Assembly: GCF_057098645.1 (NCBI RefSeq)
Contig: NZ_CM169472.1
Length of the DNA: 64,000 bases
Strand: one strand, 5' to 3'
Position 1 is the first letter of the stretch. Every line of letters starts with the position of its first letter. The position numbers were made by a program. Positions 40,801-43,800 of the stretch are shown piece by piece.

Positions 40801-43800
40801 GGGCACGATACTGGGAAAAATGATGGAAGTATCCGGGGCCGCAGAAAGAATTGGTCTGACACTTCAACGCTGTCGCTGGCTTTCAGCTGATGTCATTATG
40901 GTGCTGGTTGGCCTGATTTGCGGCATCACGCTATTTGTTGAAGTGGGCGTCGTGCTATTGATTCCTCTGGCTTTTTCAATTGCCAAAAAAACCAATACCT
41001 CATTGTTAAAGCTGGCCATTCCGCTATGTACCGCATTGATGGCAGTGCACTGCGTGGTTCCCCCACATCCGGCTGCTTTATATGTTGCCAATAAGCTGGG
41101 CGCAGATATCGGTTCGGTGATCGTCTACGGTTTGCTGGTTGGGCTGATGGCATCACTGATCGGTGGCCCACTTTTCCTTAAATTTCTGGGGCAACGACTG
41201 CCCTTTAAACCTGTACCCACAGAGTTTGCCGATCTCAAAGTTCGCGATGAAAAAACACTACCGTCATTAGGCGCAACGTTATTCACCATACTGCTACCCA
41301 TTGCGCTGATGTTGGTTAAAACGATTGCCGAATTGAATATGGCGCGTGAGAGTGGTTTGTATACCTTGCTTGAGTTTATTGGCAACCCTATCACTGCCAT
41401 GTTTATCGCCGTGTTTGTCGCCTATTATGTGTTGGGTATACGCCAGCATATGAGCATGGGGACGATGCTCACACATACGGAAAATGGCTTCGGTTCTATT
41501 GCTAATATTTTGCTGATTATCGGGGCCGGAGGCGCATTCAACGCCATTTTAAAAAGCAGCAGTCTCGCTGATACGCTGGCAGTTATTCTCTCCAATATGC
41601 ATATGCACCCGATTCTTCTGGCCTGGTTAGTGGCTCTTATTCTGCATGCGGCAGTGGGCTCCGCTACCGTGGCAATGATGGGGGCAACGGCAATTGTTGC
41701 ACCCATGCTGCCGCTGTATCCCGACATCAGCCCGGAAATTATTGCGATTGCTATCGGTTCAGGCGCGATTGGCTGCACTATCGTTACGGACTCGCTTTTC
41801 TGGCTGGTGAAGCAATATTGCGGCGCTACGCTCAATGAAACATTTAAATACTATACGACAGCGACATTTATCGCTTCAGTCGTCGCTCTGGCGGGCACAT
41901 TCCTGCTGTCATTTATCATCTAAGCGCAAAGAGACGTACTATGGAAAACGCTAAAATGAACTCGCTCATCGCCCAGTATCCGTTGGTAAAGGATCTGGTT
42001 GCTCTTAAAGAAACCACCTGGTTTAATCCTGGCACGACCTCATTGGCTGAAGGTTTACCTTATGTTGGCCTGACCGAACAGGATGTTCAGGACGCCCATG
42101 CGCGCTTATCCCGTTTTGCACCCTATCTGGCAAAAGCATTTCCTGAAACTGCTGCCACTGGGGGGATTATTGAATCAGAACTGGTTGCCATTCCGGCTAT
42201 GCAAAAACGGCTGGAAAAGGAATATCAACAACCGATCAGCGGGCAACTGTTACTGAAAAAAGATAGCCATTTGCCCATTTCCGGCTCCATAAAAGCACGC
42301 GGCGGGATTTATGAAGTCCTGGCACACGCAGAAAAACTGGCTCTGGAAGCGGGGTTGCTGACGCTTGATGATGACTACAGCAAACTGCTTTCTCCGGAGT
42401 TTAAACAGTTCTTTAGCCAATACAGCATTGCTGTGGGCTCAACCGGAAATCTGGGGTTATCAATCGGCATTATGAGCGCCCGCATTGGCTTTGAGGTGAC
42501 AGTTCATATGTCTGCTGATGCCCGGGCATGGAAAAAAGCGAAACTGCGCAGCCATGGCGTTACGGTCGTGGAATATGAGCAAGATTATGGTGTTGCCGTC
42601 GAGGAAGGACGTAAAGCAGCGCAGTCTGACCCGAACTGTTTCTTTATTGATGACGAAAATTCCCGCACGTTGTTCCTTGGGTATTCCGTCGCTGGCCAGC
42701 GTCTTAAAGCGCAATTTGCCGAGCAAGGTCGTATTGTCGATGCTGATAACCCTCTGTTTGTCTATCTGCCGTGTGGTGTTGGCGGTGGTCCTGGTGGCGT
42801 CGCATTCGGGCTTAAACTGGCGTTTGGCGATCATGTTCACTGCTTTTTTGCCGAACCAACGCACTCCCCTTGTATGCTGTTAGGCATCCATACAGGGTTA
42901 CACGATCAGATTTCTGTTCAGGATATTGGTATCGACAACCTTACCGCAGCTGATGGCCTTGCAGTTGGTCGCGCATCAGGCTTTGTCGGGCGGGCAATGG
43001 AGCGTCTGCTGGATGGCTTCTATACCCTTAGCGATCAAACCATGTATGACATGCTTGGCTGGCTAGCGCAGGAAGAAGGTATTCGTCTTGAACCTTCGGC
43101 ACTGGCGGGTATGACCGGACCTCAGCGCGTGTGTGCATCAGTAAGTTACCAACAGATGCACGGTTTCAGCGCAGAACAACTGCGTAATGCCACTCATCTG
43201 GTGTGGGCGACGGGAGGCGGAATGGTGCCGGAAGAAGAGATGGAGCAATATCTGGCAAAAGGCCGTTAATAACGTTTCAACGCAGCATCGCAATCCTTTC
43301 CCTGGGTGAGCGATGCTGCCGATGGCGCAGACTTAAGATCCCCGGTCTTACCCGCTATAACCCCCTGCTTTTACCATCACCCAACGCCTTTCGCTGTAAA
43401 CGGCGGTTTCGCAAACCAAACCAAAACCGTAAGTAAGATAAAAGCAATAGCCGCCATACGGAAAATCTCATTTGCAGAAATAGAAAGTGACTGCTGGGTT
43501 ATTTCATTATTAATTTCATTAAGAACTCCTGAAAGCGAACCATAGTATTTATCCATAATTTGTGACGATGAATTAAATACAGGGTTAAATTGATCGATGG
43601 TTGCTGTCAACTGACTATGGTGTAACGATTCGCGTCGCCCCCACAGCGTCATTGTCAACGATGTACCAACTGATCCTGACAAGGTACGAAAAAAATTACT
43701 CATACTCGAGGCATTGGCAAATTTATTATCTGGCAAGCCTGAAAACGAAATCGTTGTTAAGGGTAAAAAGAAACAGGCAACGGCGAATCCCTGAAAAAAC

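What the first reader, a model, noticed from the sequence alone, without database searches (positions are those of the whole stretch)
43282..43319. Perfect 10-bp stem with an 18-nt loop downstream of dsdA
gcagcatcgc ... gcgatgctgc forms a strong stem but is not followed by a U-run, so it is not a typical intrinsic terminator. It could be an RNA stability element or protein binding site between the convergent dsdA and emrY.
Basis: seen in the sequence. Interest (0 to 1): 0.15.

Follow-up and report, generated by a model that had tools for sequence, protein, structure and literature searches.

The report
dsdA mRNA-end hairpin, a yidF relic
The hairpin is real and is the last surviving piece of a lost neighbouring gene (yidF); published RNA 3'-end mapping in E. 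coli K-12 puts a transcript end 5 bases after it, so it is an ordinary kind of mRNA-end hairpin with an unusual origin.

Summary
The inverted repeat is exactly as described: 43282-43291 pairs with 43310-43319, 10/10 bp, starting 13 nt after the dsdA stop. No U-run follows on either strand. One such repeat per 64 kb is expected by chance, so the case rests on other evidence.

- **Origin.** In Citrobacter, Salmonella, Klebsiella and others (32 of 80 species), dsdA is convergent with yidF. This repeat lies in yidF's last 14 codons. The E. coli minus strand still reads RQHRSPRERIAMLR*, against YidF's KQHRSPMELMAMLR*.
- **Selection.** The evidence for selection is moderate:
  - compensatory arm changes that alter amino acids;
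  - low synonymous variation in the arm codons;
  - arms retained after yidF loss in Escherichia, Kluyvera and a Raoultella, with loops shortened or tightened.
- **Function.** Public Term-seq for K-12 lists an unassigned plus-strand 3' end at 2480585, which is window 43324, 5 nt past the stem. A Rho termination region lies about 190 nt downstream, in a C-rich tract. E. coli's intact yidF copy of the hairpin marks the mapped emrD 3' end.

It is most likely the 3'-terminal protective stem-loop of Rho-terminated dsdXA transcripts. That makes it a new member of a known kind.

The parts
41941..43269 (+). dsdA coding sequence (D-serine ammonia-lyase), last gene of dsdXA; stop codon at 43267-43269
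   Evidence: ORF list; RefSeq annotation of the 100%-identical O145 RM9872 genome and of K-12
43282..43291 (.). 5' arm of the hairpin, GCAGCATCGC. On the minus strand it reads as relic yidF codons A-M-L plus the first base of R.
43292..43309 (.). Spacer between the arms. A predicted inner helix (43293-43296 with 43304-43307) leaves a 7-nt loop. Most sampled E. coli genomes have C at 43292, which gives a 5-bp inner helix and -27.4 kcal/mol.
43310..43319 (.). 3' arm of the hairpin, GCGATGCTGC. On the minus strand it reads as the last base of the preceding relic codon plus relic yidF codons Q-H-R. It was invariant in all 15 full-length E. coli copies sampled, and the dsdCXA-deleted strain HS-01 also keeps it.
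43324..43324 (+). Position equivalent to the Term-seq RNA 3' end of K-12 MG1655 (2480585, +, class 'orphan'). It lies 5 nt after the stem and 55 nt after the dsdA stop.
   Evidence: Adams et al. 2021 (PMC7815308) Supplementary file 1, whose printed flank is identical to window 43274-43334. Coordinate offset of 2437261 taken.
43277..43332 (-). Relic of the 3' end of a yidF-like gene. The in-frame stop (TGA) is 43279-43277. Fourteen codons, RQHRSPRERIAMLR, span 43321-43280. About 11 further nt align to yidF after a 26-nt deletion relative to other Escherichia lineages.
43320..43459 (+). C-rich, G-poor tract directly downstream of the hairpin; a candidate Rho loading region. GC skew is -0.22 to -0.46. 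The first 100 nt hold 36 C and 18 G, which is in the top 1.2% of plus-strand 100-nt windows.
43507..43507 (+). Position equivalent to the peak of the bicyclomycin-sensitive Rho termination region of K-12 (2480768, +, antisense to emrY; Rho score 3.87, p 3.9e-9). Resolution is coarse because the score uses 800-nt windows.
   Evidence: Adams et al. 2021 Supplementary file 2
43377..44915 (-). emrY coding sequence, the convergent neighbour in E. coli. It is absent from this position in E. albertii and Escherichia sp. E1V33.

Best explanation
The inverted repeat is the conserved stem-loop found at the very 3' end of the yidF coding sequence. yidF encodes a truncated protein resembling anaerobic sulfatase maturases, and in many Enterobacteriaceae it lies tail-to-tail with dsdA. 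In Escherichia the dsdCXA cluster sits at another locus. All that is left of yidF there is its last roughly 14-25 codons, and within them only the two arms are intact.

On the plus-strand RNA the repeat folds into a stable hairpin with no U-run. It becomes the 3'-terminal structure of dsdXA transcripts.

Proposed mechanism:
1. RNA polymerase reads through the hairpin.
2. Rho loads on the C-rich, untranslated RNA just downstream, which is antisense to the end of emrY, and terminates transcription there.
3. 3'-to-5' exonucleases trim the RNA back until the hairpin stops them, leaving an end 5 nt past the stem.

Shown here or in public data: the hairpin, its yidF origin, the plus-strand 3' end at the hairpin, the Rho-sensitive region downstream, and the use of the paralogous hairpin as the emrD 3' end.

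Inferred: that the mapped ends belong to dsdXA mRNA, that they arise by trimming rather than by direct termination, and that selection maintains the stem for this purpose.
For: **Origin**
- In 32 of 80 species' dsdA loci a convergent ORF ends in ...MRDLxKQHRSPxELMAMLR* 0-55 nt from (or slightly overlapping) the dsdA stop.
- That ORF is followed by yidG and yidH. It matches E. coli yidF and, in part, the anaerobic sulfatase maturase model TIGR03942.
- The window's minus strand reads RQHRSPRERIAMLR* in the same position. Alignment with other Escherichia lineages shows further decayed yidF codons.

**Structure under selection**
- Klebsiella pneumoniae-group arms are CAGCAGCGGC/GCCGCTGCTG. E. coli's own yidF has GCAGCATCGT/ACGATGCTGC. 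These are changes on both sides of a pair, and they alter amino acids: H to Q with M to L, and A to P or T.
- Pairing is 80.9% of cells, against 77.4% in shuffles (0 of 500 reach it). The covariation score is 0.121 against 0.091 (11 of 500).
- Synonymous diversity is 0.12-0.21 in arm codons and 0.49 in neighbouring codons (p 0.005).
- After loss of yidF the arms persist:
  - E. albertii has a 12-bp stem with a 5-nt loop.
  - Kluyvera ascorbata and K. georgiana have an 11-bp stem with a 9-nt spacer. Their arms are 0 of 22 variable, against 17 of 87 for other noncoding columns (p 0.015), and the loop is 4 of 9 variable.
  - E. coli has gained an extra inner base pair.
- Pseudocitrobacter and Leclercia have different stable hairpins at the same place.

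**Function**
- Term-seq 3' end at K-12 2480585 (+), 5 nt after the stem.
- Rho termination region at 2480768 (+).
- C exceeds G downstream.
- The native yidF copy of the hairpin lies just upstream of the mapped emrD primary 3' terminus, 3855162, which is 6 nt after that stem.
- The pattern matches what Dar & Sorek 2018 describe for Rho-dependent transcripts.
Against: - The Term-seq 3' end is weak (average 1243 reads), appears once in the table (apparently only LB, OD 0.4), and is classed 'orphan'. It has not been shown to belong to dsdXA mRNA.
- The Rho region is defined with 800-nt windows, so its distance from the hairpin is approximate.
- Covariation rests on about three independent events in related sequences. 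The shuffle control does not correct for relatedness.
- The stem is degenerate in the original register in Klebsiella oxytoca, Lelliottia and some Enterobacter, at 5-7 of 10 pairs.
- About 17% of E. coli genomes carry a stem-weakening change, estimated from 7 sampled genomes (4 with G to A, 3 with G to T) in the 90-95% identity band. Roughly 10% have G to A at pair 9 and roughly 7% have G to T at pair 1. Predicted stability drops only to -22 or -23 kcal/mol.
- G-U wobble changes do not clearly favour one strand.
- No exonuclease-mutant or half-life data exist for this site.
Confidence: 0.6

Rival explanations
1. The hairpin is itself a non-canonical, U-tract-less terminator. RNA polymerase stops at it directly, possibly helped by NusA or NusG or by head-on collisions with polymerases coming from the convergent gene. 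The mapped 3' end would then be the true termination point.
For: The 3' ends lie 5-6 nt after the stem at both this hairpin and its native yidF copy. That is the geometry of direct termination. The native copy has a weak UUUAU tail. Both copies sit between tightly convergent genes.
Against: The tail here is CGAUGGCG, with one U in 8. The terminator scan finds nothing. Bicyclomycin raises downstream plus-strand coverage: the downstream/upstream ratio goes from 0.30 to 1.17. Polymerases therefore pass the hairpin and are stopped by Rho. Dar & Sorek found equally precise ends at U-less hairpins of Rho-dependent transcripts.
Confidence: 0.2
2. The repeat is a neutral leftover of yidF with no selected role in E. 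coli. Any stable hairpin will incidentally stall exonucleases, so the mapped 3' end would be a by-product.
For: One such repeat per 64 kb is expected by chance. Stem-weakening variants are common in E. coli, at about 17% of genomes. Covariation statistics are modest and confounded by relatedness. Several genera lack the stem in the original register.
Against: The arms are intact while the flanking yidF relic has decayed or been deleted. The arms are invariant in Kluyvera relics while the loop and flanks vary. After yidF loss, loop shortening in E. albertii and Kluyvera and an added inner pair in E. coli all made the hairpin tighter. Synonymous variation is reduced in the arm codons of intact yidF genes.
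Confidence: 0.15
3. The hairpin serves the minus strand, as the 3' end or stabiliser of emrKY mRNA. It lies 58-95 nt after the emrY stop. This could be instead of, or in addition to, a role for dsdA.
For: The perfect palindromic stem folds equally on the minus strand, at -21.4 kcal/mol. In intact loci the same hairpin lies at the end of the minus-strand yidF mRNA. Some wobble substitutions preserve pairing only in that sense.
Against: The hairpin predates the emrY adjacency. E. albertii and Escherichia sp. E1V33 have it but lack emrKY-evgAS at this position. No minus-strand 3' end is listed here in the datasets searched, although emrKY is poorly expressed in those conditions.
Confidence: 0.1
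4. The repeat is a DNA-level site, either a palindromic protein-binding site or a recombination or deletion hotspot marking the edge of the dsdCXA module.
For: Structural breakpoints cluster here. A dsdCXA deletion in strain HS-01 ends inside the loop. Homology with Escherichia sp. E1V33 breaks at 43320. Klebsiella indica appears to have a recombination junction just beyond the hairpin.
Against: Arm spacing varies among lineages (18, 9 and 5 nt) while the arms are kept. That is incompatible with a fixed dimer site. The hairpin is single-copy plus one paralog, with no repeated-element family. The E1V33 break is a 26-28-nt indel followed by shared sequence, not a junction at the stem.
Confidence: 0.04

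Closest known systems
[quoted passage not shown]
   Same: A stable stem-loop with no U-rich tail. A steady-state RNA 3' end lies a few nt after the stem. Read-through downstream is sensitive to bicyclomycin. C exceeds G just downstream.
   Different: Exonuclease dependence has not been tested here. The hairpin is not a dedicated intergenic element. It derives from, and in other species still lies inside, the coding sequence of the convergent gene.
The stem-loop in the last 14 codons of E. coli's own yidF, at the emrD/yidF convergent junction
   Same: It is a homologous sequence (GCAGCATCGT-N18-ACGATGCTGC) with the same 10-bp stem and 18-nt spacer. It has the same position relative to the upstream convergent gene. 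A mapped 3' terminus of that gene (emrD, 3855162) lies 6 nt after the stem (TRS study, PMC10687069).
   Different: It is still part of an intact yidF reading frame. It differs by a compensatory top pair (T-A instead of C-G). It has a weak UUUAU tail. It serves emrD rather than dsdA.
Canonical intrinsic (Rho-independent) terminators, including the bidirectional ones described between convergent genes
   Same: A GC-rich hairpin shortly after a stop codon, lying between convergent genes.
   Different: There is no U-tract downstream and no A-tract upstream. No terminator-scan hit. No minus-strand 3' end is recorded. The plus-strand read-through is sensitive to Rho.
REP/BIME and other repeated extragenic palindromes
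   Same: An intergenic, imperfectly conserved palindrome at a gene's 3' end that can stabilise upstream mRNA.
   Different: It is single-copy per genome plus one coding paralog. It does not match the REP consensus. It has a traceable origin in a gene fragment.

Membership tests
3'-end protective stem-loop of a Rho-dependent transcript (Dar & Sorek 2018) | Energetically stable stem-loop immediately upstream of the steady-state RNA 3' end | tested here: met
   The hairpin folds at -23.9 kcal/mol, z -3.95. The K-12 Term-seq 3' end at 2480585 (+) is window 43324, 5 nt after the stem.
3'-end protective stem-loop of a Rho-dependent transcript (Dar & Sorek 2018) | No uridine-rich tail after the stem and no A-tract before it | tested here: met
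   The tail is CGAUGGCG and the upstream sequence is GUUUCAAC. The terminator scan gives no hit.
3'-end protective stem-loop of a Rho-dependent transcript (Dar & Sorek 2018) | Bicyclomycin-dependent read-through downstream of the 3' end | tested here: met
   Public data list a Rho termination region at 2480768 (+). The downstream/upstream coverage ratio is 0.30 without and 1.17 with bicyclomycin, p 3.9e-9. Position resolution is coarse.
3'-end protective stem-loop of a Rho-dependent transcript (Dar & Sorek 2018) | C-over-G enrichment (a rut-like tract) just downstream | tested here: met
   The 100 nt after the stem hold 36 C and 18 G, in the top 1.2% of plus-strand windows. GC skew reaches -0.46.
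3'-end protective stem-loop of a Rho-dependent transcript (Dar & Sorek 2018) | The 3' end is generated or maintained by blocking PNPase or RNase II trimming | not testable with these tools
   This needs Term-seq in pnp/rnb mutants. The supplementary tables of PMC6061677 are not held.
Intrinsic (Rho-independent) terminator | U-tract within about 8 nt after a GC-rich stem | tested here: not met
   One U in the 8 nt after the stem on the plus strand, and 2 of 8 on the minus strand. The scan finds 0 sites in 42800-43900.
Intrinsic (Rho-independent) terminator | Short loop (3-8 nt) | tested here: inconclusive
   The arms are 18 nt apart. A predicted inner 4-5-bp helix leaves a 7-nt loop.
Bidirectional terminator between convergent genes | RNA 3' ends on both strands at one hairpin flanked by A- and U-tracts | tested here: not met
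   Only a plus-strand 3' end is listed and there are no flanking tracts. emrKY is poorly expressed in the conditions sampled, so the minus strand remains open.
Pseudogene fragment of yidF (3' end) | Sequence homology to the yidF C-terminal codons, with the stop in frame | tested here: met
   RQHRSPRERIAMLR* against KQHRSPMELMAMLR*. The DNA is 34 of 42 identical to Citrobacter yidF, with both arms 20 of 20.
Pseudogene fragment of yidF (3' end) | Conserved synteny: yidF convergent with dsdA in relatives | tested here: met
   32 of 80 species' dsdA loci show it, with yidG and yidH behind yidF. The ORF is identified through E. coli yidF and NCBIfam TIGR03942.
Repeated extragenic palindromes (REP/BIME and similar) | Many dispersed copies per genome | tested here: not met
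   5396 places in 5395 E. coli genomes for the 59-nt query. The only other copy is inside yidF.
Any curated Rfam family | Covariance-model match | tested here: not met
   No hit overlaps 43270-43376 even at E up to 10.

The most novel reading that the evidence does not exclude
A 3'-end hairpin that serves the upstream convergent gene (dsdA, or emrD in E. coli) is embedded in the last codons of yidF. On this reading, selection on the RNA stem has shaped the YidF C-terminal amino-acid sequence across Enterobacteriaceae through paired H/M to Q/L and A to P or T changes. The stem also behaves as a portable module. It travelled with dsdCXA to a new locus and survived as the only intact piece of yidF in at least three lineages, where it was then tightened once coding constraint was gone.
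Probability: 0.45. Interest if true: 0.45.

Novelty: new member of a known kind. Interest (0 to 1): 0.3.

Why it matters
- **Annotation.** An 'orphan' Term-seq 3' end in E. coli K-12 gets a concrete assignment. It is most likely the end of the dsdXA operon, missed only because it lies 55 nt from the stop rather than within the 50-nt cut-off. The dsdA-emrY spacer gets a functional reading.
- **History of the locus.** The relic records that dsdCXA once sat next to yidF. dsdCXA is a niche-determining D-serine locus in uropathogenic and enterohaemorrhagic E. coli. The relic also marks the left edge of the emrKY-evgAS acid-resistance block.
- **General lesson.** This is a clean natural example of an mRNA-end hairpin encoded inside a neighbouring gene's coding sequence and then outliving that gene. 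It bears on how tightly convergent genes share termination signals and how RNA structure constrains protein tails. None of this overturns current understanding.

Tried and rejected
- **Rfam scan** of 42800-43900 at E up to 10: nothing overlaps the intergenic region.
- **Promoter and terminator consensus scan**: no terminator, and one unremarkable promoter-like site inside emrY.
- **Repeated-element idea**: rejected. The hairpin is one copy per genome, and arm-like 10-mers in the window are chance matches.
- **Literature search** for dsdA/emrY terminator and for yidF with dsdA: nothing relevant.
- **Supplementary tables not held as text**: Dar & Sorek 2018, the 3'-UTR valve paper and the Rend-seq annotation paper.
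- **First gene-name search** of the Adams et al. tables missed the site, because the 3' end is unassigned. A search by coordinate found it.
- **Fixed-register pairing analysis** wrongly suggested the stem is lost in Pseudocitrobacter and Leclercia. Free folding showed other stable hairpins at the same place.
- **G-U wobble as a strand test**: inconclusive, with about three cases each way.
- **Protein-binding palindrome**: rejected on variable spacing.
- **The second dsdCXA copy** carried by some E. coli could not be located with the tools, because only the best place per record is reported. It was not examined.
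Full report
**1. The observation**

The arms are 43282-43291 (GCAGCATCGC) and 43310-43319 (GCGATGCTGC), 10 of 10 complementary, 18 nt apart. 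It lies in the 107-nt spacer between an ORF at 41941-43269 (+) and one at 43377-44915 (-). RefSeq annotation of a 100%-identical E. coli O145 genome and of K-12 names these dsdA and emrY.

No U-run follows on either strand, and a consensus terminator scan finds nothing. Folded as RNA, the plus strand gives -23.9 kcal/mol (z -3.95) and the minus strand -21.4 kcal/mol. An inner 4-bp helix reduces the nominal 18-nt loop to 7 nt.

Taken alone the repeat is not remarkable. Random sequence of the same first-order composition gives about 1.2 such repeats per 64 kb, and the window has 11. No Rfam family matches. It is single-copy: 5396 places in 5395 of 5426 complete E. coli genomes.

**2. What the sequence is**

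I fetched dsdA loci from 80 other species and read what follows the stop codon.

In Citrobacter, Salmonella, Klebsiella, Pseudocitrobacter, Leclercia and others (32 of 80 loci), a convergent ORF ends 0-55 nt from the dsdA stop, or overlaps it by up to 18 nt. Its tail is ...MRDLxKQHRSPxELMAMLR*. The ORF is followed by yidG and yidH. It partly matches the anaerobic sulfatase maturase model TIGR03942. Its DNA matches E. coli yidF.

The inverted repeat is inside its last 14 codons. On the yidF strand, G-CAG-CAT-CGC (Q-H-R) pairs with GCG-ATG-CTG-C (A-M-L).

The window's minus strand still reads RQHRSPRERIAMLR followed by TGA, in the same place. A divergent Escherichia lineage labelled E. coli and Escherichia sp. 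E1V33 keep further decayed yidF codons next to the hairpin. Typical E. coli has lost these in a 26-nt deletion.

E. coli keeps an intact yidF elsewhere, convergent with emrD. That copy has its own version of the hairpin, GCAGCATCGT-N18-ACGATGCTGC, 12 nt after the emrD stop.

The hairpin is therefore a relic of a yidF 3' end that stayed attached to dsdA. No paper in the searchable library mentions yidF together with dsdA.

**3. Is the stem maintained by selection?**

Evidence for selection:

- *Changes on both sides of a pair that alter amino acids.* The Klebsiella pneumoniae group has CAG-CGG paired with CCG-CTG, which is H to Q with M to L, and A to P. E. coli's own yidF has CGT paired with ACG, which is A to T. 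Salmonella shows the U-G intermediate.
- *Low synonymous diversity in the arms.* Among 16 Citrobacter, Salmonella and E. coli yidF genes, and one Klebsiella, that share the tail, it is 0.12-0.21 in arm codons against 0.49 in the other degenerate codons of the last 30 (Mann-Whitney p 0.005).
- *The arms survive loss of the gene.*
  - E. albertii has an 11-bp plus G-U stem and a 5-nt loop, at -22.5 kcal/mol.
  - Three Kluyvera genomes have an 11-bp stem and a 9-nt spacer. Their arms are 0 of 22 variable, against 17 of 87 for other noncoding columns (p 0.015), and the loop is 4 of 9 variable.
  - A Raoultella keeps the stem next to a yidF broken by stop codons.
  - The common E. coli variant has gained an inner C-G pair, giving -27.4 kcal/mol.
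- *Other hairpins at the same place.* Where the original register is degenerate, other stable hairpins occupy the site. Pseudocitrobacter has a 14-bp stem shifted by one codon, at -30.5 kcal/mol. Leclercia has an 11-bp stem with a 4-nt loop. Klebsiella oxytoca has a canonical terminator in a longer spacer.
- *A general feature of dsdA 3' ends.* Across all 80 loci, the best 48-nt fold in the 110 nt after dsdA averages -21.7 kcal/mol, against -17.6 inside dsdA (p 5e-13).

Evidence against selection:

- The formal covariation count is modest. Pairing is 80.9% against 77.4% in shuffles, and the score is 0.121 against 0.091 (11 of 500 shuffles reach it). The sequences are related, and there are only about three independent events.
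- Lelliottia and some Enterobacter have no strong hairpin.
- Wobble substitutions do not single out one strand.
- About 10% of E. coli genomes carry G to A at pair 9 and about 7% carry G to T at pair 1. This is estimated from 7 sampled genomes (4 and 3) in the 90-95% identity band. Predicted stability stays at -22 to -23 kcal/mol.

I rate selection on the stem as likely but not proven.

**4. What it does**

- *A 3' end at the hairpin.* Supplementary file 1 of Adams et al. 2021 (eLife 10:e62438, PMC7815308) lists a Term-seq 3' end at MG1655 2480585 (+), with an average of 1243 reads. Its printed flank, GTTTCAACGCAGCATCGCAATCCTTTCCCTGGGTGAGCGATGCTGCCGATG|GCGCAGACTT, is identical to window 43274-43334. 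The table's format is 50 nt, then the end nucleotide, then 10 nt; I checked this on the sgrS row.
- *Coordinates.* In MG1655, dsdA is 2479202-2480530 and emrY is 2480638-2482176. The end therefore corresponds to window 43324, which is 5 nt after the stem and 55 nt after the dsdA stop.
- *Why it was unassigned.* That study calls an end 'primary' only within 50 bp of a gene, so this one was filed as 'orphan'.
- *Rho downstream.* Supplementary file 2 of the same study lists a Rho termination region peaking at 2480768 (+), antisense to emrY. Downstream/upstream coverage is 26/86 without bicyclomycin and 253/216 with it, p 3.9e-9. That peak is about 190 nt past the hairpin.
- *A rut-like tract.* The 100 nt after the stem hold 36 C and 18 G, in the top 1.2% of plus-strand windows.
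- *The paralog behaves the same way.* The TRS study (Nat Commun 14:7843, PMC10687069) lists the primary emrD 3' terminus at 3855162. Its fold sequence is the native yidF hairpin, and the end lies 6 nt after that stem.

This is the pattern Dar & Sorek 2018 (PMC6061677) established for Rho-dependent transcripts. They found precise steady-state ends just after stable hairpins without U-tracts, with C exceeding G downstream. They attributed the ends to protection from PNPase and RNase II.

*Best mechanism (confidence about 0.6).* dsdXA transcription passes the hairpin. Rho terminates in the C-rich RNA antisense to the end of emrY. Exonucleases trim back to the hairpin.

*Not shown.* That the mapped end belongs to dsdXA mRNA. 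That it arises by trimming rather than by direct termination. That the hairpin affects dsdA expression.

**5. Rivals**

- *Direct termination at a U-less hairpin (0.2).* This fits the geometry of the ends but not the bicyclomycin read-through or the tail sequence.
- *A neutral relic whose exonuclease block is incidental (0.15).* This fits the chance expectation and the common E. coli variants. It does not fit the differential decay of arms against flanks, or the hairpin-tightening changes seen after yidF loss in E. coli, E. albertii and Kluyvera.
- *A role for emrKY on the minus strand (0.1, possibly additional).* This cannot be excluded, because emrKY is barely expressed in the sampled conditions. 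But the hairpin predates emrY's presence here. E. albertii and Escherichia sp. E1V33 have dsdCXA plus the hairpin followed by yfdY-lpxP-alaC, and lack window 43320-59055.
- *A DNA-level protein or recombination site (0.04).* This is disfavoured by the variable arm spacing.

**6. Comparison with what is known, and verdict**

The hairpin works like the 3'-terminal protective stem-loops of Rho-dependent transcripts. It meets four of the five defining features tested: a stable hairpin at the end, no U-tail, bicyclomycin read-through, and C exceeding G downstream. Exonuclease dependence is untested.

It fails the defining U-tract test for intrinsic terminators. It is not a repeated element or an Rfam family.

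It is a new member of a known kind. The new points are modest:
- It assigns an orphan 3' end to the dsdXA operon.
- The hairpin is a relic of yidF that records the former dsdA-yidF adjacency.
- In other species the same structure sits inside yidF's coding sequence and seems to constrain the protein's tail.

Interest 0.3.

Noticed in passing
window 43320-59055: The roughly 15.7-kb block after the hairpin, starting with emrY and emrK, is absent from this position in E. albertii (L014) and Escherichia sp. E1V33 (L013). There dsdA plus the hairpin is followed after 190-340 nt by yfdY, lpxP and alaC. From my recollection of the K-12 gene order, the block runs from emrY through evgAS to ypdI. The left junction lies within about 17 nt of the hairpin's 3' edge.
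   Followed up: partly
L011 1440-1600 (E. coli HS-01): A deletion that removes dsdX, dsdA and part of dsdC ends inside the hairpin loop. Only the 3' arm (GTGAGCGATGCTGC...) and the emrY side remain.
   Followed up: partly
L005 2288-4382 (E. coli MB56): An IS1A element sits at the 3' end of a frameshifted emrY. dsdCXA and the hairpin are missing and prophage-type genes (yfdH) lie upstream.
   Followed up: no
L040 3820-3900 (Klebsiella indica): The body of yidF resembles K. oxytoca. Its last roughly 15 codons, the hairpin and the spacer to dsdA are identical to Citrobacter sp. (L022). This suggests a recombination junction just beyond the hairpin, with dsdA and the hairpin moving together.
   Followed up: partly
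L041 3830-4010 (Raoultella sp. BIGb0138): yidF is broken by stop codons upstream of the conserved tail, while the tail and hairpin remain. This looks like another independent relic.
   Followed up: partly
L032 and L033, 3830-3885 (Klebsiella oxytoca, K. spallanzanii): A canonical intrinsic terminator (GGCGACGAAnnnnTTCGTCGCC followed by T7) lies in a 53-55-nt dsdA-yidF spacer. In these species the yidF-internal stem is degenerate, at 5 of 10 pairs.
   Followed up: partly
E. coli genome collection: The 351-nt query (end of dsdA, spacer, end of emrY) hits 5681 places in 5400 genomes. The 59-nt hairpin query hits only 5396 places in 5395 genomes. About 5% of genomes therefore seem to hold an extra partial copy without this hairpin. 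From my recollection, some K1 strains carry a second dsdCXA cluster, which could be the source.
   Followed up: no
L012 and L099 (E. coli Ch1, ECO_2_R); window 43267-43269: In some strains the dsdA stop TAA reads TCA, and dsdA is annotated one codon longer (1332 nt), ending at the next TAA. This shortens the distance to the hairpin by 3 nt.
   Followed up: no
window 14234-14266, 14793-14829, 20616-20644, 22385-22416, 30324-30352, 30787-30817, 39741-39773, 50442-50480, 56415-56451, 61084-61109: Ten other perfect inverted repeats of at least 10 bp with loops of 3-20 nt. Several have stems of 13-14 bp. This is far more than the roughly 1 expected by chance. They are probably terminators or similar elements.
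   Followed up: no
L093 2497-2994 and MG1655 3854772 (-), 3855526 (-): Public data list a Rho termination region antisense to emrD, about 340 nt past the yidF stop. They also list a strong Term-seq 3' end inside the 5' part of yidF. Minus-strand yidHGF transcripts therefore also read through the native hairpin, and yidF may be subject to premature termination.
   Followed up: no
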